64,000 bases of DNA from Cyanidioschyzon merolae (taxonomy: Eukaryota). Shown piece after piece: positions 1,426 to 40,068 of this stretch. Position 1 is the stretch's first letter; every line of letters starts with the position of its first letter. Location: the NCBI GenBank assembly GCA_000091205.1, contig AP006483.2. One strand, 5' to 3'. The notes below the pieces were generated by a model. The model did not search any database. It was not told where the DNA came from and was given only the letters and a program-made list of their open reading frames with translations. The position numbers and the translations under genes were made by a program.

Positions 1426-2640
1426 ATGCTCCTGTCGTGCGAAACGTCGCAGATTTTAGGGTGGTGCTGTTTTCACAGTTCGCGGCACGGTCTGCGGAGT
1501 GTGCGACAGGGCACCCGCTTGGTAACGCTTCGATATCAGCAGCGAGTGCCTGCAAAGCCTCGATATCTACGAAACGCGCATACGTTTGGTGAACACGCTC
1601 GATCAAGAATGGACGTGCTGGAGCCAGCGCGCTTGCTGGAGGCGTATCGACGGAGCATTCCAGACTGGGAGACGCTACGGCACAAGGGTGCTGCTGGACG
1701 CGTAGCGGTTGTCGGTGGTTGTCTCGAGTACACCGGCGCGCCGTACCTTGCCGCTATGAGTGCCACACGAGCTGGCGCAGATCTCGCTTACATATTCTGT
1801 GCAGTCGAGGCGGCATTCCCGCTGAAAACCTACGCCCCAGACTTGATCGTTATTCCCGCTTACAGTTCACGGCCTTTGGCGAGTCTGCAGCCGAGTGATT
1901 CTGTTCATAGCTCCGAGCCGGCTGCGGTAGACCTTTTCGTTTCATGGCTACCGCGCATGCATGCGGTGTGCTTTGGACCCGGCCTCGGGCGAGACCCCGG
2001 TGTGCTTGCTACTGTGCAGGAGCTCTTGGTGCGCGCCCTCAAGCATCCAGTGCCCGTGGTTATTGACGCGGATGCTCTGTTCCTGTTGAGCCAATTCGGT
2101 CCACGACACACCGGAACGGCACTAGCGACCACCCTGGAGGAACGAAGAAACGCAACTGCTGACCGAGGGTCTTCCTCCAATCGCATTGCTCCCATCGTGG
2201 TGACCCCGAACGCAGTGGAAACTCGACGACTGCTGGAGTCTTTTCAGATCCGCTCGCCGCAAGAATGGGTCCGTCATGTACTGGCTCCTGGCGATGTCAT
2301 GTTAGAGAAAGGTGAAACAGACCGAATCCATGCGGTATGCGACGAGGCTCACGAACCTGAACCATCCTGTGTGACCGTGGACTGCGCGGAATGCGGCTCA
2401 CCGCGACGCTGTGGCGGCCAAGGTGATATACTCAGTGGCATCTTGGCAACATCTCTGGCATGGATGGGCTTTCAGGGCGAATCCGCAAGCGCCCTAGTAG
2501 CAGCGGTGGGGGCATCCACGCTAACCCGGCGCGCATCACGAGCAGCCTTCGGGGCCAAATATCGGGCCATGACAGCAACAGACGTTCTCGAGCAAGTCGG
2601 GCCTGTATTCCATGCCTTTGAAACAGAGTCATCCAGCTAG
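1426..2640 (+). CDS. NAXD: ATP-dependent (S)-NAD(P)H-hydrate dehydratase (YjeF C-terminal / CARKD family carbohydrate kinase)
   Basis: 404-aa ORF. It carries the family motifs 'GAAGRVAVVGGCLEYTGAPYLAAMSATRAGADLAYIF' (Gly-rich nucleotide loop) and the C-terminal 'CGGQGDILSGILA' (GxGD...G catalytic Asp motif). The first ~60 aa show no family resemblance, so the real start is probably the in-frame Met at 1609 (MDVLEPARLL..., 343 aa), or the N-terminus is a targeting peptide. Confidence 0.8.
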   Translation: MLLSCETSQILGWCCFHSSRHGLRSVRQGTRLVTLRYQQRVPAKPRYLRNAHTFGEHARSRMDVLEPARLLEAYRRSIPDWETLRHKGAAGRVAVVGGCLEYTGAPYLAAMSATRAGADLAYIFCAVEAAFPLKTYAPDLIVIPAYSSRPLASLQPSDSVHSSEPAAVDLFVSWLPRMHAVCFGPGLGRDPGVLATVQELLVRALKHPVPVVIDADALFLLSQFGPRHTGTALATTLEERRNATADRGSSSNRIAPIVVTPNAVETRRLLESFQIRSPQEWVRHVLAPGDVMLEKGETDRIHAVCDEAHEPEPSCVTVDCAECGSPRRCGGQGDILSGILATSLAWMGFQGESASALVAAVGASTLTRRASRAAFGAKYRAMTATDVLEQVGPVFHAFETESSS

Positions 2641-16439: not shown

Positions 16440-18080
16440 CTGCTAAAGCGGAACGATAATGTCGTCTATGAGAGTGCCAGAAGCAATCGTCCACACAACG
16501 TGTCGACGAGGACGCGTTGGTGACGTGTTTCCCAGCCGGTGTTCGCCCGGCGAGTGCCCAGCGTCTCGAGTCGCCGCCCTGCCCACCGCGCACGGTAGAC
16601 GCTGAGGGAAACGGAAACCCGGTTTCCAGACCAGTTGTACTGACCTGGCAACGCGTGGGTGTGCGTGGAGGTGCTCGCGAGGCGACCAACCTACCGGACT
16701 AGGAGATCTACCCTCGACTGCCTTCCGCGGGGTATCGCTCCGGAGTTCGCTGGACAGCAACAGCGACCATTACGCCTATCTCGGACGACAACAGAACGGG
16801 TCTAGTTCGCTGACTCTTGCGTACACCTAGGCAGGTACAGGTTTCTTCCCAGTGCCATGAATAGCAGGAAATGGGGCCCTGTTCTGCGACTGCTTCATTT
16901 TCCTCTCTCGCATCGCCGGCATTGCATGCTCCGGCCTCCTTTTTCCCTATAGCTCTGGTTTCAATAGTCAAAGGATGCTGATAGCAGCGTTCAAGTCCCA
17001 ATGATGACGCATTTGATGCGCATGCGGAAGTTGCGATCTACGCTTCGCTTGCCAGTTTTATCATGGTAAACGGTCTTGATGCGTCCTTCACAGTGGTGAC
17101 ACTTGAGTGTGGTCGGGTGTTCGAATCTGCCGTCGATACCGCCTCCACCGGGAGCTGCCCTGTGGCGCGTGAATGCTCACGCCATCGTTTGGTACGTGCC
17201 GCTGACGAGTCTAGAAGTCTTCCCGAGGCCATCCTCTGATATAACGCCCGGTACCGTACCCTACGATCAGGGTCGTCTTCGGGTGATGCCCTCCACGAGC
17301 ATGCTCTCTGCTGCACGCGCAGGTACACGCTGTTTCATGCGATAGAGGATTTGCGCAACTAGATGCTGTTCATGATGATACGAGTCCCGTATGGAATATC
17401 CAGGCTAGAGAACGAGTCGAGAGGTTTCCAACCAGCTGCGCTCCCTTTGTGCGAACCGGTGGTGCACGCTCCACTGCAGGCGATCGTTGCGACGATTCAG
17501 GTCTGTATCTAAGACCCTCGTATATGCCAACGGAAGAGACGAGCGCCTCTGAAAGCATATCTCGTGAAAGATTCGTATACGACGTAGAATTCTATTTCGT
17601 CACTGGTTCGATAGAAAGCAGGATTCTGCTCTCGAAAGGAATCGAATATTTTCCGTGAGAAGTGCACTGAAGTTTCTGCGGGAGCCTGTGAACAAGTCGC
17701 CCAGGGACGATGTCGAGCTCTGTTCGTCATCAATCCAGAGGCGCGAGTTGCTGCGCGTACGAATTGCCTTGCACTCGAGAGATCGAAAATTTGAAGACAA
17801 GCGTGATGCCAGCATCCTGAACGCAAGGAAATGAGACTAGAACTGGTTTTCCCATTTGCGTTGGATCATGGTATGGATTATTTCACGAAACCTTGTTTGA
17901 GGGCGTCGCGAATCCTCTTTATTCCAGTAGGCTGACGCATTCCAGCGGCGAAGCGTCGAACAAGCCACATCGTAAAAAACCCCCAAATATCCTGAAACTA
18001 CCAATGAATCCGCAAGCCCTCATTGCTGCGGTTCCAGTGCAGCGGCCATTCATCTAAAAAATGAAGGAAGAATCACAATG

Positions 18081-18125
18081 CAGGAACAGCAGGAACAGCA
18101 GGAACAGCAGGAACAGCAGGAACAG
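18081..18125. repeat. (CAGGAA)7 hexanucleotide microsatellite
   Basis: caggaacag repeated, read directly. The in-frame ATG just upstream gives only a 27-codon ORF, so it is probably non-coding 3' flank of the minus-strand zinc-finger gene. Confidence 0.9.
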
Positions 18126-18226: not shown

Positions 18227-18958
18227 TCATACGGCGTCCTGATTTGTCTCCTGAAGGCGGTGCAGTCTTCGAAGATGACGTTTGGAGCGTGCATGATCCC
18301 ACATATCCCGTGCATTCAGCAGGACGACTTGCCGGCAGATCTGACACTGAAAGGTATCCCGCGAGCGCTTCTCGATGGCTGGGGGTAGCACGCTATGATC
18401 GCCGTCGGACTGCGCATCACTACAAGTCGCTCGACTGGTTGAGTGCAACTTCACGATGCGAGCAGTTTTGACTGTGAGCTGTGTCTCAGGGTCGTGCTGT
18501 TGGCGTCGATCGTCTGCACGGCACTGCGGAGCATCGCTCGCCTCGCCCGAGTCGCTCAACACGTCATTCGCTGGGTCGTACGAAGGTTTGGTACTCGAGT
18601 CCATGACAGCGTCTAGCGTAGCCGCATCTCTAGGTGCAACCTGGTAACGGCTGGCTTGCATTCGGGACAGACGGGCGAGTTGGTCTTCGGCGACGTCCTC
18701 CTCCTCTGGATCGGACTCGCTCGCCAACGAGTCGGGTCGATCTCCAGTAGACACCGTCGTCTCGGAGTCCTCGGACTCGCTGGTTGAAGTGAGCGCATCA
18801 TCACCGTACCAGGTGTTCCAGGCGATGCGTTTAATCATGGCGGGTCGGTGGCCTGTGCACGCTTCCCCCTGCAATTGAGACTCCCGAGAGCAGTACTCGA
18901 CGCGATCGCAAACTTTGGCTCTCTGGAACAGAGGATCCGCCACCAGCCGCCAACGCAA
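18227..18958 (-). CDS. acidic Ser/Asp-rich protein with C-terminal U1/matrin-type C2H2 zinc finger
   Basis: 243 aa. The C-terminus 'FQCQICRQVVLLNARDMWDHARSKRHLRRL' fits C-x2-C-x12-H-x5-H (U1-like/JAZ-type ZnF). The remainder is acidic low-complexity. The internal Met (MIKRIAWNTW...) is an alternative start. Confidence 0.5.
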   Translation of the reverse strand: MRWRLVADPLFQRAKVCDRVEYCSRESQLQGEACTGHRPAMIKRIAWNTWYGDDALTSTSESEDSETTVSTGDRPDSLASESDPEEEDVAEDQLARLSRMQASRYQVAPRDAATLDAVMDSSTKPSYDPANDVLSDSGEASDAPQCRADDRRQQHDPETQLTVKTARIVKLHSTSRATCSDAQSDGDHSVLPPAIEKRSRDTFQCQICRQVVLLNARDMWDHARSKRHLRRLHRLQETNQDAV

Positions 18959-19164
18959 GATCCTTACAAGGAAAGTAGCACCCTTTTGAAAAAAAGCGCT
19001 CTTTCACCAACCCCGAGCAGAGAACGGCACCGCTCTTCTGCAACGCCTCCTTTAATACAAAGGCGCACTGCTGGCCAACTGGTGTCTGTTCTCAAGGAAG
19101 AAACTCGGCAAGTTCGGGAATCGGTACCCTTGCCCACCAACCAATCAGATAAACACACCAGCAA

Positions 19165-20844
19165 GTGGTTCGAGTTTTCCGCTTTGACTCGTTGGAACGA
19201 AGCAACGCCTCCGAGCAAGTCGAGCGCAGTGGATGGTGGAGCTGTTGCGGCCCGAGCCAGCTCGAGATAGAATTCTTTATCCAAGCCGCGCTGAGCATCG
19301 TTTTTCACCCGCGGTGCCACTGGCTTCCACGGATGGTATCCCAGAAAGAGACGTCGCGTGCGGATGAGGTAACTATCACCATTCCAGTAGAGCCTGGTGA
19401 TGCCGAGGCCGGACGAGCGGCTGCTGTGTCGGCAGCTGCCGTGGGGCGCGCTCTCCAGACGGCCTTGCAGCGAAAGGCGTCTGCGGCGCCTCGACTGGCC
19501 CCGCGTGAGGTCTGGCTCTATGACCCTGGCTATACAAGCACGGCCTGCTGTCGCTCTGCAATCACTTTTATTGACGGTGAGAACGGTATTTTGGAGTATC
19601 GCGGGTTTCCAATTGAAGCGCTCGCAACGACCTGCGGCTTCTACACCGTAGCGTACATGCTGCTCGAGGGAACGTTTCCGGCGGACGCAAAGGTGCGCGC
19701 CCAGTTTGCCAAGAGCATTCAACCAGGTCTCGACCTCGACCCTGTTGTCGCAAACGTCGTAGAGAGCTTCCCGCAGGAGGCGCACCCGATGACGGTCTTT
19801 ATGGCTGCGACGGCTGCATTGAGTGCGAGTCGCCCGGCATGGAACCCCGCCCTCGTTCGAGGCGATGGCGGCAGTTTGCGGTTGGTGTATCGCACTCGCG
19901 CTGAACGTCAACGTATCGCACAGGAATGCATTTCGTCACTCACCAGTATCGCTGCAGCGGTTTTCCGTCACATGCGTGGTTGCCCTGTGCGCTTTCCGAA
20001 GAGCACACAGCACCTGCGGGAGCATCCTCTGGATGCCTTTGCCCCTGACGGGTTCGCGCGAGCCTTCCTGCACGCTGCTGACCCCGAAGGCACACTCTGG
20101 CCTGAGCAACGTCATGCATCGGCAGTTTTCGCCGAAACCCTGGATGTCATCTTTGTACTGCATGCAGATCATGAACTGAACTGCTCCACTGCAGCGATGC
20201 GTCACCTGACTTCAGCAGGTTCCGATGTCCTGACCTGTTTGGCAGCTGCGATCGGGGCACTCTATGGACCGTTGCATGGCGGCGCAAATGAGGCAGTTCT
20301 GAACATGCTGGAGGAGATCGGCAGCCCGGAGGCGGTGGAAGCCTTCGTCGCATCCGTGAAGCGTCAGGAACGGAAGCTCATGGGATTTGGTCATCGCGTT
20401 TATCGGAGCTATGATCCACGGGCAAAAATTTTGCGAACGCTAGCACAACAAGTGTTGCGGGAGGCGTCCACGGAAGGTCGTACTGCAAACGGACCGACGA
20501 CTGCGAACGGCGCATCAGACCCGCTGCTGATCATTGCTCAGACGCTGGAGAAGCGAGCACTGGAAGACCCCTACTTTACGGAACGGAAACTCTATCCTAA
20601 CGTTGACTTTTACTCAGGGGTTTTGTATCGCGCGATGGGTTTTCCGAGTGTTTTCTTTACAGTGCTGTTTGCCATTGCGCGCACTGTTGGCTGGCTTGCG
20701 CACTGGATGGAGATGCTCGAACGGGACGCAACGGATGCTGAACGCAAAATCGTACGCCCTCGACAGATCTATATCGGAAAGCGGCGACAACGCATCCCGC
20801 TTGAAGCGGTGGAGAAACGACCTGATCGCCGTTCGAGACTGTGA
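19165..20844 (+). CDS. citrate synthase with C-terminal PTS1-like tripeptide -SRL (candidate peroxisomal/glyoxysomal isoform)
   Basis: 559 aa. The citrate synthase signature 'GFGHRVYRSYDPRA' is present, along with the N-terminal-domain motif 'ITFIDGENGILEYRGFPIEAL'. The ORF ends ...RPDRRSRL*; S-R-L fits the PTS1 consensus [SAC][KRH][LM], and yeast peroxisomal Cit2 ends -SKL. The first ~56 aa are non-homologous; the in-frame Met at 19333 (MVSQKE..., 503 aa) is a likely alternative start. Confidence 0.9.
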   Translation: MVRVFRFDSLERSNASEQVERSGWWSCCGPSQLEIEFFIQAALSIVFHPRCHWLPRMVSQKETSRADEVTITIPVEPGDAEAGRAAAVSAAAVGRALQTALQRKASAAPRLAPREVWLYDPGYTSTACCRSAITFIDGENGILEYRGFPIEALATTCGFYTVAYMLLEGTFPADAKVRAQFAKSIQPGLDLDPVVANVVESFPQEAHPMTVFMAATAALSASRPAWNPALVRGDGGSLRLVYRTRAERQRIAQECISSLTSIAAAVFRHMRGCPVRFPKSTQHLREHPLDAFAPDGFARAFLHAADPEGTLWPEQRHASAVFAETLDVIFVLHADHELNCSTAAMRHLTSAGSDVLTCLAAAIGALYGPLHGGANEAVLNMLEEIGSPEAVEAFVASVKRQERKLMGFGHRVYRSYDPRAKILRTLAQQVLREASTEGRTANGPTTANGASDPLLIIAQTLEKRALEDPYFTERKLYPNVDFYSGVLYRAMGFPSVFFTVLFAIARTVGWLAHWMEMLERDATDAERKIVRPRQIYIGKRRQRIPLEAVEKRPDRRSRL

Positions 20845-20975
20845 ACCAGATATGAACTCATGATGAATGGTCGCACCTTGCGCATACGATGCCACAGAGC
20901 GACGATTTGATCGCCATACGCGACGATGAACCCGATATGAATTCATGATGAATGCTCGTATCCTACGCTTGCTCG
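20815..20975. repeat. tandem duplication, ~85-bp unit x2, spanning the citrate synthase stop codon
   Basis: Copy 1 runs ~20818-20902 (cgacctgatcgccgttcgagactgtgaaccagatatgaactcatgatgaatgg...). Copy 2 runs ~20903-20975 (cgacgatttgatcgccatacgcgacgatgaacccgatatgaattcatgatgaatgc...). The anchors 'tgatcgcc' and 'catgatgaatg' are each spaced 85 bp apart, and identity is ~80%. Confidence 0.7.
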
Positions 20976-21803: not shown

Positions 21804-22871
21804 CTAGTCTGACCCTTCTTTCCGGTATCCATGAGGGTTCTCGCTCTGCCATTTCCACGTGGACGCACACATTTCATCGATACCGAGCTTGGCTTCCCAA
21901 CCGAGGAATGTTTTGGCAAAGCTCGGATCCGCGTAGACAACAGCAGCATCGCCTGGTCTTCGCGCAACAATTTTGTACGGAATACGACGCCCGGACGCTT
22001 TCTCGAAAGCTTTCACCATCTCAAGCACGGAGTATCCTCGGCCGGTGCCAAGGTTTACCGCAACGCAGCCCACGTTTGCCTCGTCTTTTTCAAGTTTCTC
22101 TAACGCCGCCACATGGCCCTTTGCTAAATCCACCACATGAATGTAGTCACGAACGCCGGTTCCATCCGGAGTGGGGTAGTCATTCCCGTACACCGAGAGA
22201 AACTCTCGGCGTCCGACGGCAACCTGTGCGATAAACGGCATCAAATTATTCGGAATACCCACGGGATCTTCCCCGATACGCCCGGAAGCATGGGCACCAA
22301 CGGGATTAAAGTAGCGCAGGATGAGAATGTGCCAGTCGCGTCCACCATGTGGCGAGGCGTGCAGATCCCGCAAGAACTCTTCAATAAACAATTTGGTTTT
22401 GCCGTATGGATTCGTGGCACCAAGTGGTGATGTTTCCGAAATCGGCACCTTTTCTGCCTGCCCGTACACTGTCGCCGACGATGAAAACACAAATCGACGA
22501 CATCCGTGGCGGTTTAAGCTCTGCAGAAGGTTCAACGTGCCAATCAAGTTGTTCCGGTAATACCGCAACGGTTGCTCTACAGACTCGCCTACAGCTTTCA
22601 GGCCTGCAAAGTGAATACAAGCGCTGATTGGCGCTGATTTTGCCACAGCAGCGTCCAGTGCAACGCCATCCGTGAGGTCAACGGCTTGAAACTGCAGCCG
22701 CTGCTCACTGGCCCCGGTGAGCTCCCGTACCCTGCGCAGCGCCTCCTCACTCGAGTTGCTCAGGTTATCCAGGACAACCACATCGTAACCCGATTCAAGG
22801 AGCTCTACGACCGTATGACTTCCAATATAACCTGCCCCTCCAGTTACCAATATCCTTTTCGTATGATCCAT
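21804..22871 (-). CDS. GALE: UDP-glucose 4-epimerase (GalE, NAD-dependent SDR)
   Basis: 355 aa. The N-terminal Rossmann motif is '[35 protein letters not shown]', and a catalytic YxxxK region is present ('[16 protein letters not shown]'). The length and C-terminal '[26 protein letters not shown]' are typical of GalE. Confidence 0.9.
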
Positions 22872-24288: not shown

Positions 24289-24590
24289 TCTATGATGCAA
24301 TGCAGCAATCCCCAATGTATGATGTCCATTATGATCCAAGATTGAATCAAATGGACTCAAGTGCGAACGGGTGGCGATCTATGATGCAATGCAGCAATCC
24401 CCAATCTATAACGTCCATTATGATCCAAGATTGAATCAAATGGGCTCAAGTGCGAACGGGTGGCGATCTATGATGCAATGCAGCAATCCCCAATGTATAA
24501 CGTCGATTATGATCCAAGATTGAATCAAATGGACTCAAGTGCGAACGGGTGGCGATCTATGATGCAATGCAGCTATCCCCGCATCCATCA
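24289..24590. repeat. minisatellite, 89-bp unit x ~3.3 copies
   Basis: Unit 'tctatgatgcaatgcagcaatccccaatgtatgatgtccattatgatccaagattgaatcaaatggactcaagtgcgaacgggtggcga' starts at 24289, 24378, 24467 and 24556 (period 89). The fourth copy is truncated and diverges after 'gcagctatcccc'. Confidence 0.9.
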
Positions 24591-24760: not shown

Positions 24761-26077
24761 ATGGATGCACCTGCGCCTGCAGAAAATGACGCGCTTATAG
24801 TGGCTGGAAAGCGTACACCGCTAGGTTGTTTGGGAGGCGCTCTGGCAGGTGTTTCCGCTGTAACCCTGGGTGCTGCTGCGGTACGAGGCGCCCTCGAGGC
24901 CGCCCGCATACCCGGCGCTCTCGTTGAGGAGTGCTATTTCGGCTGCGTCCTGAGCGCGAACCTCGGACAGGCACCTGCACGCCAGGTTGCGTTGCAGGCG
25001 GGCTTACCGGTGACTTGCTGCTGCACGACCGTGAACAAGGTGTGCGCGAGTGGTGCAAAGGCCATAGCGCTGGCCGCACAGTCCATACTTCTGGGGCAGG
25101 CTGATGTAGTCGTCGCCGGAGGCATGGAGAGTATGAGTCAAGCACCCTATTGCATCGGGAATGGCGGCTCTGGTGGGCCTGAGGGCGTTCACCGCGTCCG
25201 CATCGGTGGCCTGCGCCTCTTCGATGCTCAACTCGTTGACAGTATCATGCGAGACGGTTTACTGGATGCATCACCGGCAGGGAAACCTGCGCGCCCTATG
25301 GGATGGTATGCAGATGCCTGCGCTGTCCATCATTCAATCACCAGGGAGGAACAGGACGCGTACACGTTGGAAAGTTACAGACGCGCCCAAATGGGCTGGG
25401 AATCGGGTTCCATGGCCGAAGAAGTCGTCCCTGTCCCGCTGAATTCAGCAGACAGCGCATCGATTGCACGAGATGAGGAGCCGTGGCGTCTCCAAGCCGA
25501 CAAGCTACCGCGCTTACGACCGGCTTTTGATCGAGAGCGAGGCACCGTCACAGCTGCAAATAGTTCCAAGATCAGCGACGGTGCCGCTGCAGTGGTGCTG
25601 GTCTCGCGCCGCAAGGCTCGCGAACTCGGCCTCATTTCCGCTGACAGCGCAGCAGCCGAGGATACGCTTCGTGACGGCAGACGATCTCGTTCCATTTTTC
25701 AACTCGTTGCCGCAGCTGATGCTGAGCGTGAGCCTGAATGGTTCACGCTCGCTCCCGTGACCGCGATTCGCAAGCTCTTCTCGACTCGCTATGGACTTGA
25801 TGCTAGCGACATGGCAAATGTTGATTGCTGGGAAATCAACGAGGCATTCAGTGTGGTGCCTCTGGCAGCGATCCGGGAGCTGCCTCGGATTCGTTCCGAA
25901 CGCCTGAACATGCGAGGTGGTGCGGTATCGTTGGGTCATCCTCTCGGTTGCAGTGGAGCGCGCATTGTTGTCACGCTGTTATCTGTTCTAGAGGAGCACC
26001 AATGGGAATACGGCGTTGCTGCCATCTGCAATGGCGGCGGCGGCGCTACTGCGCTTCTCATTCGGCGACTGGCTTAG
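24761..26077 (+). CDS. acetyl-CoA C-acetyltransferase (acetoacetyl-CoA thiolase, thiolase II, ERG10/ACAT type)
   Basis: 438 aa. 'VLSANLGQAPARQVALQAGLP...TTVNKVCASGAKAI' contains the active-site Cys of the thiolase N-terminal signature and closely matches the ERG10/ACAT block. 'GGMESMSQAPY' is present, as is the C-terminal signature 'NGGGGATALLI'. There is no N-terminal PTS2 (R[LI]x5HL) and no PTS1. Confidence 0.9.
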   Translation: MDAPAPAENDALIVAGKRTPLGCLGGALAGVSAVTLGAAAVRGALEAARIPGALVEECYFGCVLSANLGQAPARQVALQAGLPVTCCCTTVNKVCASGAKAIALAAQSILLGQADVVVAGGMESMSQAPYCIGNGGSGGPEGVHRVRIGGLRLFDAQLVDSIMRDGLLDASPAGKPARPMGWYADACAVHHSITREEQDAYTLESYRRAQMGWESGSMAEEVVPVPLNSADSASIARDEEPWRLQADKLPRLRPAFDRERGTVTAANSSKISDGAAAVVLVSRRKARELGLISADSAAAEDTLRDGRRSRSIFQLVAAADAEREPEWFTLAPVTAIRKLFSTRYGLDASDMANVDCWEINEAFSVVPLAAIRELPRIRSERLNMRGGAVSLGHPLGCSGARIVVTLLSVLEEHQWEYGVAAICNGGGGATALLIRRLA

Positions 26078-38412: not shown

Positions 38413-40068
38413 ATGATTGCTTTCCTACCATCTTCACATGGATGCAGAACGTTTTCTAGCATCAGGTGGTCGAGGTCCGGTGCTCAGCGGCGAGTTCGAG
38501 CAGTCGTAACGTGTTCACGGGGGAGCGTCTCGCCAGCGCAGGCACCCGGAGAGCCCAGTCAAAACTCCGACGAGGCTGCGGTGCGGGACAGGGAGAGCGC
38601 GTGGCGCCCTGTTGCCTGCAGCTCCGGGCAGCTGGTCACGAACTGCAGCTCACTGGTGCCGGCGTGCACGGTTGGTGCGGCTGCCACTGAACTTGCGTTT
38701 CCAGGGGCCTTGACAGCTCCCGGAGCGCGACTTTCCCGCAGCACCCAGCGCCAAAACGGTTTCCGAACGGAACCTGCTTCCTGTTCAGAGCGTTCTATGG
38801 AGATCTCGTGCGCGGCGGGGCGGGCACCTGCCACGACGCCGCTCTCGTACCGACGTGCACAGCGTGCTACCTGCCGGGGCCGAGTCGGGCGTCCACAGGA
38901 AGCGCCAAACGCCAGCGTCTACGAGTTTCGCGCAGGACAAAGCGTCAAAACTGCTGAGCTCGCACCTTGTGACTCGGACGTTGTTGACCCAAAAATAACC
39001 ACTCTCGTAGATGCAGAGCACCGAACTGAACAGGCAGCGTTGAATGAGACGCATCCTCGACTTCGCCAGATACCGAGGCCAACACACTGCGTCCCGCGAC
39101 GTGCGTTTCTCTCAATAGCCATTGCACTGGGCGTTGCTAGTCTTGGGAAACCGCTCGCTTCTGTGGCAGCAGCCGCAGCCGCAGCAGCACCGGCGTCTTC
39201 GAGCGCAGAGCCCGCAACTACCCGGATCCCGGGCGATGTGCGCATCCTCTTCTCTCGAGCGCAACGCCTGGAAGATGAGGGCGAGTTTCAAGAGGCCCTC
39301 AAGATTTACGCTTCGGTCGTCGATCGCGAGCCAGGCCTCGTCTGGGCATATGCTAACCGCGCAAACCTTTACAGTCGCCTGGGGCAGTACGATCAGGCCC
39401 TCGCGGACTACACACAAGCGATTCGGTTGCTCTGCAAGACGGTATCTGGAAACGAATCAACCGGAGACGAGCGGCTGACGGACGCTGACGCCCCGTGTTT
39501 GGAGCGCGAGCTATGGGTCCTCTACCTGAATCGAGCTACGGTGTACCGAACGCTTCGCCGCCACCAGGAAGCGCTTCGCGATATGAATCGAGCTCTGAGC
39601 ATTCGTCCGTATGAGCCGCTGCTCCTTGTAAATCGTGCAATGGTCTATGTGGATCTGGCGAAATACGATGCTGCCCTGTTGGACTATCAACGCGCTGTGG
39701 AGCGACGACCGGGCGATGTGCAGCCCTTCTGGGTAGACTATGCGTTGACGCTCTTCCAACGCGGACGTGACACCGATGCCCTCGGCATCATGCGCAGAGT
39801 AGCGAGTAAGCCGAGTTTTGCCCAGTCCGATGAAGTGAAAGCAGCCTACGCAGTCCTTCTTTATGACCGAGGCATGCTCAGTGACGCAGAGGGTCTATGG
39901 GGTGCGTTGCAGCGCCCACGCCGATTTCAAGACGAAAACTTTCTTCGAAACGAGCGTCACTGGCCGCCTCGAGCCATTGAGGTTGCGCTGCGATATCATC
40001 CACAACGTGGCAGGCAGAAGACATCATCTTCCTCGGCGGCGACCAGCCTGGCCCCTTCTACCGATTAA
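38413..40068 (+). CDS. tetratricopeptide-repeat (TPR) protein with long Ala/Ser/Arg-rich N-terminal region (possible organellar targeting)
   Basis: 551 aa. The C-terminal half has at least 5 tandem 34-aa TPR units, e.g. 'ALKIYASVVDREPGLVWAYANRANLYSRLGQYDQALADYTQAIRL', 'LNRATVYRTLRRHQEALRDMNRALSIRPYEPLLLVNRAMVYVDLAKYDAALLDYQRAVERRP'. The N-terminal ~270 aa are low-complexity and rich in R/S/A, with an (A)9 run before the TPR block. Confidence 0.65.
   Translation: MIAFLPSSHGCRTFSSIRWSRSGAQRRVRAVVTCSRGSVSPAQAPGEPSQNSDEAAVRDRESAWRPVACSSGQLVTNCSSLVPACTVGAAATELAFPGALTAPGARLSRSTQRQNGFRTEPASCSERSMEISCAAGRAPATTPLSYRRAQRATCRGRVGRPQEAPNASVYEFRAGQSVKTAELAPCDSDVVDPKITTLVDAEHRTEQAALNETHPRLRQIPRPTHCVPRRAFLSIAIALGVASLGKPLASVAAAAAAAAPASSSAEPATTRIPGDVRILFSRAQRLEDEGEFQEALKIYASVVDREPGLVWAYANRANLYSRLGQYDQALADYTQAIRLLCKTVSGNESTGDERLTDADAPCLERELWVLYLNRATVYRTLRRHQEALRDMNRALSIRPYEPLLLVNRAMVYVDLAKYDAALLDYQRAVERRPGDVQPFWVDYALTLFQRGRDTDALGIMRRVASKPSFAQSDEVKAAYAVLLYDRGMLSDAEGLWGALQRPRRFQDENFLRNERHWPPRAIEVALRYHPQRGRQKTSSSSAATSLAPSTD

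What the first reader, a model, noticed from the sequence alone, without database searches (positions are those of the whole stretch)
19165..20844. Citrate synthase ends in a PTS1-type tripeptide (-SRL): candidate peroxisomal/glyoxysomal isoform
The CS signature GFGHRVYRSYDPRA is unambiguous. The last three residues, S-R-L, fit the peroxisomal targeting signal 1 consensus, and yeast peroxisomal Cit2 ends -SKL. This points to a peroxisome-located citrate synthase and hence a glyoxylate-cycle-type acetyl-CoA route. The next anabolic acetyl-CoA enzyme, an ERG10/ACAT-type acetoacetyl-CoA thiolase, lies only 4 kb downstream, with GalE between them. The ORF also has ~56 non-homologous N-terminal codons before an internal Met (19333), so dual targeting or a mis-called start is possible.
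Basis: partly seen in the sequence, partly recalled or inferred. Interest (0 to 1): 0.5.

Follow-up and report, generated by a model that had tools for sequence, protein, structure and literature searches.

The report
Known peroxisomal citrate synthase, red alga

Summary
The ORF at 19165-20844 (+) encodes a citrate synthase (Pfam PF00285, E 1.5e-109) that ends in -SRL.

The window comes from Cyanidioschyzon merolae 10D chromosome 1. From the ATG at 19333 the protein is 100% identical to XP_005535043.1, and published CMA040C qPCR primers match inside it. The 56 "extra" codons are an artefact of a GTG start, because no ATG lies upstream of 19333.

A peroxisomal location is well supported:
- All five Cyanidioschyzon, Cyanidiococcus and Cyanidium orthologues end in SRL, ARL, AKL or ARM, although the preceding tail has diverged. 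A Galdieria paralogue ends in AKM or SKM.
- 61% of homologues from other eukaryotes carry an N-terminal PTS2 instead.
- The best solved-structure match is Arabidopsis peroxisomal CSY3.
- C. merolae is reported to lack PEX7.

This is already published. Gonzalez 2011 tabulates C. merolae citrate synthase as PTS1. Moriyama 2015 names three peroxisomal citrate synthase genes and a mitochondrial CS-4.

The glyoxylate-cycle inference fails, because KEGG lists no isocitrate lyase or malate synthase for C. merolae. The neighbouring thiolase (CMA042C) and GalE (CMA041C) were reported non-peroxisomal, and their linkage to the citrate synthase is plain synteny.

Verdict: correct, known, low interest.

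The parts
19333..20844 (+). Coding sequence of citrate synthase CMA040C (503 aa plus stop), C. merolae 10D
   Evidence: 100% identical to XP_005535043.1/P0128. Pfam PF00285 at E 1.5e-109. Published CMA040C qPCR primers match at 20503-20518 (+) and 20549-20569 (-). The 1,595-bp Logan contig L001 covers 19300-20894 at 99.56% identity.
20833..20841 (+). Codons for the C-terminal tripeptide Ser-Arg-Leu, the predicted PTS1
   Evidence: Fits the plant consensus [SA][KR][LMI]> (PMC7710942). Orthologues end in ARL, AKL, ARM and ARL. Residues 499-503 have AF2 pLDDT below 50, which suggests a flexible exposed tail.
20806..20832 (+). Nine residues upstream of the tripeptide (AVEKRPDRR); the 12-residue tail has a net charge of +3
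   Evidence: The last 12 residues hold 5 K+R against 2 D+E. This stretch is poorly conserved among orthologues while the tripeptide class is kept.
19165..19332 (+). In-frame upstream stretch with no ATG; not coding, an artefact of bacterial ORF rules (GTG start)
   Evidence: In-frame stop at 19150-19152 and first ATG at 19333. All orthologues and the reference protein start at the equivalent of 19333.
20383..20424 (+). Citrate synthase signature GFGHRVYRSYDPRA, including the catalytic His354
   Evidence: Coordinates. H315 (PLHGGAN), H354 (GFGHRVY) and D425 (NVDFYSG) are invariant in an 87-sequence alignment.
19984..20058 (+). Largest of four insertions specific to the Cyanidioschyzon/Cyanidium clade; the others are at 19864-19881, 20461-20517 and 20722-20733
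   Evidence: Alignment A1. The two long insertions coincide with AF2 blocks of pLDDT 59-73, as does the block containing the 4-residue one (66-68); the block with the 6-residue one is at 78. Coordinates.
21804..22871 (-). Neighbour: UDP-glucose 4-epimerase CMA041C (context only, not part of the system)
   Evidence: 355 aa; the published primer atggatcatacgaaaaggat matches its start; cytosolic by GFP (PMC6325583). Pfam Epimerase.
24761..26077 (+). Neighbour: thiolase CMA042C (context only, not part of the system)
   Evidence: 438 aa; the published primer atggatgcacctgcgcctgc matches its start. Its GFP fusions were cytosolic or vesicular, not peroxisomal (PMC4928187). It ends in -RLA, which is not a PTS1.

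Best explanation
CMA040C is an active citrate synthase of the bacterial-like type II family that eukaryotes use in peroxisomes. It is translated from the ATG at 19333 and has no N-terminal targeting peptide. It is most likely bound in the cytosol by the PTS1 receptor PEX5 through its free C-terminal -SRL and imported into the single peroxisome of C. merolae. There it would condense acetyl-CoA with oxaloacetate, so that acetyl units leave the organelle as citrate. This is the role shown for Arabidopsis CSY2/CSY3, and it needs no glyoxylate cycle.

Its relatives in most other eukaryotes use an N-terminal PTS2. The Cyanidiophyceae, which are reported to lack the PTS2 receptor PEX7, carry the signal at the C-terminus instead.

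Shown here: the enzyme family, the catalytic residues, the start codon, the tripeptide and its conservation, and the absence of PTS2. Inferred: actual import, and the metabolic role.
For: - Family: Pfam PF00285 at E 1.5e-109. The best NCBIfam model is GltA-type PRK05614 at 406 bits, against 92 bits for the eukaryotic mitochondrial model. The best solved-structure match is 'Citrate synthase 3, peroxisomal' 9x0i at E 8.6e-105.
- Catalytic residues: H315, H354 and D425 are invariant in 87 homologues.
- Identity: 100% identical to the C. merolae 10D protein, and the CMA040C primers match.
- PTS1 conservation: SRL, ARL, AKL, ARM and ARL in five orthologues at 50-70% identity, with divergent upstream tails. 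The Galdieria 'peroxisomal' paralogue ends in AKM or SKM.
- Signals in the wider family: of 114 other homologues, 70 have R[LIV]x5[HQ][LIVAF] in the first 40 residues, against a background of 0.5% per 40-residue window. Twelve have a canonical PTS1, against a background of 0.3-0.5%. None of the five orthologues has a PTS2.
- Tail accessibility: AF2 model with pLDDT 85.7 and pTM 0.88, with the last five residues below 50.
- N-terminus: the first 30 residues hold 6 acidic and 3 basic residues and form part of the folded N-terminal domain, so they are not a presequence.
- Literature: C. merolae lacks PEX7 and its citrate synthase is scored as PTS1 (PMC3178647 Table 3; PMC7710942). [quoted passage not shown]
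Against: - I could read no direct localisation of this protein. Moriyama 2014 (Planta), Imoto 2013 (peroxisome proteome) and Misumi 2005 are not held. The 2015 paper says only 'peroxisomal ... believed to be involved'.
- In the same organism, GFP fused to the C-terminal peptide of acyl-CoA oxidase did not reach the peroxisome, although that enzyme has a predicted PTS1. The beta-oxidation enzymes were also absent from the peroxisome proteome (PMC4928187). A predicted PTS1 is therefore not proof in this organism, and the source of peroxisomal acetyl-CoA is unclear.
- No PTS1-predictor score could be computed.
- The tail has two acidic residues, D at position -6 and E at -10.
Confidence: 0.8

Rival explanations
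1. Glyoxysomal citrate synthase feeding a glyoxylate cycle, functionally coupled to the neighbouring acetoacetyl-CoA thiolase.
For: The PTS1 and membership of the peroxisomal citrate synthase family. The thiolase lies 3.9 kb away. The CS-GalE-thiolase order is kept in a relative at 70% identity.
Against: KEGG lists no isocitrate lyase or malate synthase for C. merolae, Galdieria or Chondrus. None of 17 red-algal transcriptomes has malate synthase and only one has isocitrate lyase (PMC6642084). CMA042C was not peroxisomal by GFP and ends in -RLA. CMA041C is cytosolic. In the Cyanidium-type contig the thiolase is replaced by RPL10 and a branching enzyme. Upstream genes (Carb_kinase, capping enzyme, His_Phos_1) are conserved in order too, so this is ordinary synteny.
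Confidence: 0.04
2. Cytosolic citrate synthase whose SRL ending is not used for import.
For: No localisation data were accessible. A PTS1-bearing acyl-CoA oxidase C-terminal GFP fusion failed to reach the peroxisome in C. merolae. 0.4-1.7% of ORF ends in this window fit the tripeptide pattern by chance.
Against: The tripeptide class is retained in 5 of 5 orthologues and in a Galdieria paralogue, while the adjacent residues diverge. 80 of 114 homologues elsewhere carry a peroxisomal signal. The literature treats the protein as peroxisomal.
Confidence: 0.12
3. Mitochondrial or dually targeted enzyme that uses the 56-codon upstream extension or the N-terminus as a presequence.
For: An open frame extends 56 codons upstream of the ATG.
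Against: The extension contains no ATG. It is not present in any orthologue or in the reference model. The Logan contig begins at 19300. The true N-terminus is net acidic and folds into the enzyme's N-terminal domain. A distinct mitochondrial CS-4 exists.
Confidence: 0.03

Closest known systems
Arabidopsis thaliana peroxisomal citrate synthases CSY2/CSY3 (PDB 9x0i)
   Same: Same type II-like family and the best solved-structure match at E 8.6e-105. Peroxisomal. They export beta-oxidation acetyl units as citrate (Pracharoenwattana 2005, cited in PMC2808949).
   Different: The plant enzymes use a cleavable N-terminal PTS2. CMA040C has no PTS2 and a C-terminal SRL. It also carries four clade-specific insertions and is only about 42-49% identical to homologues outside its clade.
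Citrate synthases of Cyanidiococcus yangmingshanensis (KAF6000398.1) and Cyanidium caldarium (KAK4538696.1)
   Same: Orthologues at 69% and about 51% identity, with the same insertions, no PTS2, and PTS1 endings AKL and ARM. They form a clade with 100% bootstrap support.
   Different: Only the tripeptide variant and the tail sequence differ.
Galdieria sulphuraria 'Citrate synthase, peroxisomal' (GJD08357.1, XP_005704031.1)
   Same: A red-algal type II-like citrate synthase ending in AKM or SKM, without PTS2.
   Different: It has a canonical sequence, about 60% identical to other eukaryotes, and lacks the insertions. It does not group with CMA040C in the neighbour-joining tree.
Nannochloropsis gaditana citrate synthase (ARL>); diatom PTS2-to-PTS1 conversions
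   Same: The same evolutionary pattern, in which classical PTS2 cargo carries a PTS1 in algae (PMC7710942; PMC3178647).
   Different: Nannochloropsis still has PEX7. Diatoms appear to have no peroxisomal citrate synthase.
Saccharomyces cerevisiae Cit2 (-SKL)
   Same: A peroxisomal citrate synthase imported by a C-terminal PTS1.
   Different: Cit2 is a paralogue of mitochondrial Cit1 in the eukaryotic-type family. CMA040C scores 92 bits against a cut-off of 620 on that model. The resemblance lies only in the targeting signal, and Cit2 works in a glyoxylate cycle that red algae lack.
Escherichia coli GltA (type II citrate synthase)
   Same: Fold, N-terminal domain and catalytic His/His/Asp. E about 7e-86 to PDB 4jad. 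The best NCBIfam model is PRK05614.
   Different: It is bacterial and has no targeting signal. CMA040C scores below the equivalog cut-off (406 against 505 bits) because of its insertions and divergence.

Membership tests
Citrate synthase (Pfam PF00285), type II / peroxisomal-type clade | Full-length match to the citrate synthase domain | tested here: met
   PF00285 at E 1.5e-109, covering profile positions 1-357 of 357.
Citrate synthase (Pfam PF00285), type II / peroxisomal-type clade | Catalytic His, His and Asp (pig H274, H320, D375 equivalents; the mapping is from my own knowledge) | tested here: met
   H315 (PLHGGAN), H354 (GFGHRVY) and D425 (NVDFYSG) are invariant in 87 sequences.
Citrate synthase (Pfam PF00285), type II / peroxisomal-type clade | Closer to the GltA and plant-peroxisomal type than to the eukaryotic mitochondrial type | tested here: met
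   PRK05614 scores 406 bits against 92 bits for TIGR01793. The top PDB hit is Arabidopsis CSY3. The score is below NCBIfam's equivalog cut-off of 505 bits.
PTS1 cargo (PEX5-dependent peroxisomal matrix protein) | Extreme C-terminal tripeptide within [SA][KR][LMI]> | tested here: met
   The protein ends -SRL followed by a stop. The consensus is as quoted in PMC7710942.
PTS1 cargo (PEX5-dependent peroxisomal matrix protein) | Signal conserved in orthologues | tested here: met
   ARL, AKL, ARM and ARL in four further lineages, and AKM or SKM in Galdieria.
PTS1 cargo (PEX5-dependent peroxisomal matrix protein) | Exposed, flexible C-terminus | tested here: inconclusive
   The monomer AF2 model gives pLDDT below 50 for residues 499-503. 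The oligomeric state was not modelled.
PTS1 cargo (PEX5-dependent peroxisomal matrix protein) | Score above threshold in a trained PTS1 predictor on the last 12-14 residues | not testable with these tools
   No predictor was available. The only data are a net charge of +3 and R at positions -4 and -5.
PTS1 cargo (PEX5-dependent peroxisomal matrix protein) | Experimentally shown import that depends on the tripeptide | not testable with these tools
   The key papers are not held.
PTS2 cargo (as in plant CSY2/3 and Dictyostelium CshA) | R[LIV]x5[HQ][LA]-type nonapeptide in the first ~40 residues | tested here: not met
   No match in the first 60 residues of CMA040C or its four orthologues, while 70 of 114 other homologues have one.
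Glyoxylate-cycle (glyoxysomal) citrate synthase | Isocitrate lyase and malate synthase present in the same genome | tested here: not met
   Tested through the literature only. A KEGG keyword and EC search found neither enzyme in C. merolae (PMC6642084). I could not scan the genome itself.
Mitochondrial citrate synthase | Eukaryotic-type sequence and an N-terminal basic amphipathic presequence | tested here: not met
   TIGR01793 scores 92 bits against a cut-off of 620. The first 30 residues hold 6 D+E and 3 K+R. A separate mitochondrial CS-4 is reported.

The most novel reading that the evidence does not exclude
The citrate synthase of the Cyanidioschyzon/Cyanidium clade is a fast-evolving, insertion-bearing peroxisomal paralogue. 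Its job would be neither the glyoxylate cycle (isocitrate lyase and malate synthase are absent) nor disposal of peroxisomal beta-oxidation acetyl-CoA, because acyl-CoA oxidase, the multifunctional protein and thiolase were not found in the C. merolae peroxisome. This would point to an undescribed peroxisomal acetyl-CoA or organic-acid route in these minimal cells, for example one tied to photorespiratory glyoxylate and redox handling.
Probability: 0.12. Interest if true: 0.45.

Novelty: already known. Interest (0 to 1): 0.12.

Why it matters
The finding matters little as a discovery. The gene is annotated, its PTS1 was tabulated in 2011, and it was called peroxisomal in 2014-2015.

It is a clean textbook case of a PTS2-to-PTS1 switch in a lineage that lost PEX7. 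It also shows that a peroxisomal citrate synthase does not imply a glyoxylate cycle.

One open point remains. The beta-oxidation enzymes were not detected in the C. merolae peroxisome, so it is unclear what supplies acetyl-CoA to this enzyme.

Tried and rejected
- **TPR protein as PEX5.** I checked whether the TPR protein at 38413-40068 is the PTS1 receptor PEX5. It gives only generic TPR hits, with PEX5 at E about 7e-6 over one repeat, and has no WxxxF motifs. Rejected.
- **Other C. merolae paralogues.** I looked for CS-2 and CS-3 among the hits of two database searches and by listing cluster members. Only the two Galdieria paralogues surfaced. The one lead is that the CMJ293C qPCR primers translate to RALDI and LNCSTA, which are citrate synthase motifs.
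- **Papers not held.** Moriyama 2014 (Planta), Imoto 2013 (PNAS peroxisome proteome) and Misumi 2005. A full-text search for 'CMA040C' found nothing. Supplements of PMC12112623 held nothing on citrate synthase.
- **Bootstrap tree.** A Biopython bootstrap run timed out and was replaced by a numpy-based neighbour-joining bootstrap. The sister position of Porphyridium may be long-branch attraction.
- **Functional gene cluster.** I considered that CS, GalE and thiolase form a functional cluster. Rejected, because the genes are on different strands, the products are reported in different compartments, and the linkage is broken in the Cyanidium-type contig.
- **Antisense ORF.** The 315-aa antisense ORF at 18964-19911 overlaps the citrate synthase gene. 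I treated it as spurious without testing it.

Full report
**Observation.** The ORF reported at 19165-20844 (+) is present. It matches Pfam Citrate_synt end to end (E 1.5e-109). The motif GFGHRVYRSYDPRA is at nt 20383-20424. The protein ends ...AVEKRPDRRSRL, followed by TGA at 20842-20844. GalE lies at 21804-22871 on the minus strand, and a thiolase at 24761-26077 lies 3.9 kb downstream. The 559-codon ORF begins at a GTG, a start allowed only by bacterial ORF rules. An in-frame TAA lies at 19150-19152, and the first ATG is at 19333.

**Source and gene identity.** The closest database cluster contains XP_005535043.1/BAM78757.1, "citrate synthase [Cyanidioschyzon merolae strain 10D]", 503 aa, on a 422,616-bp contig. 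The window protein read from 19333 is 100% identical to it.

Published primers fix the gene names:
- The CMA040C qPCR primers of Moriyama et al. 2015 match once each at 20503-20518 (+) and 20549-20569 (-).
- The CMA041C (UGE, 355 aa) primer matches the start of the GalE gene.
- The CMA042C (438 aa) primer matches the start of the thiolase gene.

This is a nearly intron-free eukaryotic genome, which explains the long uninterrupted ORFs. No tRNA genes were found in the window.

**Start codon.** All orthologues begin at the position equivalent to 19333. A 1,595-bp Logan contig from a near-identical strain covers 19300-20894 only. The 56 upstream codons are therefore not coding. The true N-terminus, MVSQKETSRADEVTITIPVE..., has 6 acidic and 3 basic residues in its first 30. 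In the AlphaFold model it belongs to the folded N-terminal domain of type II citrate synthases. There is no mitochondrial presequence.

**What kind of citrate synthase.** The best NCBIfam model is the GltA-type PRK05614 at 406 bits. The eukaryotic mitochondrial model TIGR01793 scores 92 bits against a cut-off of 620. The best solved structure is Arabidopsis "Citrate synthase 3, peroxisomal" (9x0i, E 8.6e-105). The catalytic residues H315, H354 and D425 are invariant in an 87-sequence alignment. The AF2 model is confident (pLDDT 85.7, pTM 0.88). The low-confidence segments are four clade-specific insertions and the last five residues.

**Is the SRL a signal or chance?** In this window, 0.44% of all stop-to-stop segments end in [SA][KR][LMI], and 4 of 238 segments of at least 100 aa do. 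One occurrence alone proves little. The comparative evidence is much stronger.

- The four other orthologues end in ARL, AKL, ARM and ARL. They are a Cyanidioschyzon-like metagenome lineage at 70% identity, Cyanidiococcus at 69%, Cyanidium caldarium at about 51%, and a second Cyanidium-like lineage at 50%. The ten residues before the tripeptide are almost unalignable between C. merolae and Cyanidium.
- A Galdieria paralogue annotated as peroxisomal ends in AKM or SKM.
- Among the 114 other homologues in the top 120, 70 carry a PTS2-like nonapeptide (for example RLSILRNHL, RLATVLGHL) within the first 40 residues. The background is 0.5% per 40-residue window.
- Twelve of those 114 carry a canonical PTS1.
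- None of the five orthologues has a PTS2.

This is a family of peroxisomal enzymes, and this clade carries the signal at the C-terminus. That fits the published absence of PEX7 and of PTS2 cargo in C. merolae (PMC3178647; PMC7710942; PMC9328179).

**Already known.** Table 3 of Gonzalez et al. 2011 lists C. merolae as Pex7 absent and citrate synthase "PTS1". Moriyama et al. [quoted passage not shown] CMA040C is in their primer table. I could not read Moriyama 2014, Imoto 2013 or Misumi 2005, so I cannot say whether localisation of this particular isoform was shown experimentally or inferred.

**Pathway reading.** The glyoxylate-cycle inference does not hold. A KEGG search found neither isocitrate lyase nor malate synthase in C. 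merolae, Galdieria or Chondrus. None of 17 red-algal transcriptomes has malate synthase, and only one has isocitrate lyase (PMC6642084). The better analogy is Arabidopsis CSY2/3, which export beta-oxidation carbon as citrate.

There is a caveat. Mori et al. 2016 found that GFP fusions of the C-terminal peptides of acyl-CoA oxidase, the multifunctional protein and thiolase CMA042C did not go to the peroxisome. They also note that these enzymes were absent from the peroxisome proteome. The acetyl-CoA source for a peroxisomal citrate synthase is therefore unsettled. The same result shows that a predicted PTS1 is not proof of import in this organism.

**Neighbours.** CMA041C is cytosolic by GFP. 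CMA042C is cytosolic or vesicular and ends in -RLA. The order Carb_kinase ... capping enzyme ... His_Phos_1 ... CS, GalE(-), thiolase, photolyase is conserved in the relative at 70% identity. In the Cyanidium-type contig, CS-GalE is followed by RPL10, a branching enzyme and an IP5 2-kinase instead of the thiolase. The adjacency is ordinary synteny between monocistronic genes, not a functional cluster.

**Phylogeny (rough).** In a neighbour-joining tree on 446 columns with 200 bootstraps, the five orthologues form a long-branched clade with 100% support. That clade is sister to the Porphyridium protein, which may reflect long-branch attraction. The two Galdieria paralogues fall elsewhere. C. 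merolae probably has at least one more canonical paralogue, CMJ293C, because its qPCR primers translate to RALDI and LNCSTA. I could not retrieve it.

**Verdict.** The peroxisomal PTS1 interpretation is supported, at about 0.8. The ideas of a glyoxylate cycle, coupling to the thiolase, and dual targeting are not supported. The feature is already described in the literature, so interest is low.

Noticed in passing
window 24289-24580: A tandem repeat of an 89-bp unit, 3.3 copies at 96% match, lies about 180 bp upstream of the thiolase CMA042C start codon. Its function is unknown; it may be a promoter-region repeat.
   Followed up: no
window 18080-18125: A perfect 9-bp microsatellite (GCAGGAACA) x5.1. 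It produces the NSRNSRNSR run seen in a spurious ORF, in the region upstream of the citrate synthase gene.
   Followed up: no
window 38413-40068 (+): A 551-aa protein with C-terminal TPR repeats and a hydrophobic, Ala-rich segment in the middle. I checked it as a possible PEX5 and rejected that: only generic TPR similarity and no WxxxF motifs.
   Followed up: yes
window 19864-19881, 19984-20058, 20461-20517, 20722-20733: Four insertions in the citrate synthase are shared only by the Cyanidioschyzon, Cyanidiococcus and Cyanidium orthologues. The largest two, plus the 4-residue one, fall in low-confidence AF2 blocks (pLDDT 59-73); the block holding the 6-residue one is at 78. Their role is unknown.
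   Followed up: partly
P0015, P0140 (Galdieria gene models); window 1426-2640: Some Galdieria gene models fuse the peroxisomal-type citrate synthase to a YjeF_N NAD(P)HX epimerase (828-841 aa). Others split them into a 476-aa citrate synthase ending in SKM and a 355-aa epimerase, so the fusion is probably an annotation artefact of adjacent genes. In this window and in related contigs, a Carb_kinase (NAD(P)HX dehydratase) gene lies 8-17 kb upstream of the citrate synthase.
   Followed up: partly
PMC4586181 Table S1 (not in the window): The qPCR primers for CMJ293C translate to RALDI and LNCSTA, which are citrate synthase motifs about 60 nt apart. CMJ293C is therefore probably another type II-like citrate synthase paralogue of C. 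merolae. It was not recovered in my protein searches.
   Followed up: partly
window 18227-18958 (-): A 243-aa ORF with what looks by eye like a C2H2/U1-type zinc-finger motif (CQICRQ...HARSKRH) is divergently oriented, about 375 bp from the citrate synthase ATG. Genes of 207 aa and 192 aa occupy the same position in related contigs. By its numbering it is probably CMA039C.
   Followed up: no
P0020 (Porphyridium purpureum 'Citrate synthase 3, peroxisomal'): This gene model has neither a PTS1 nor a PTS2. It does contain ...LLPSKL followed by a roughly 45-residue non-homologous extension, so the C-terminus of the model may be mis-predicted and may hide an SKL ending.
   Followed up: no
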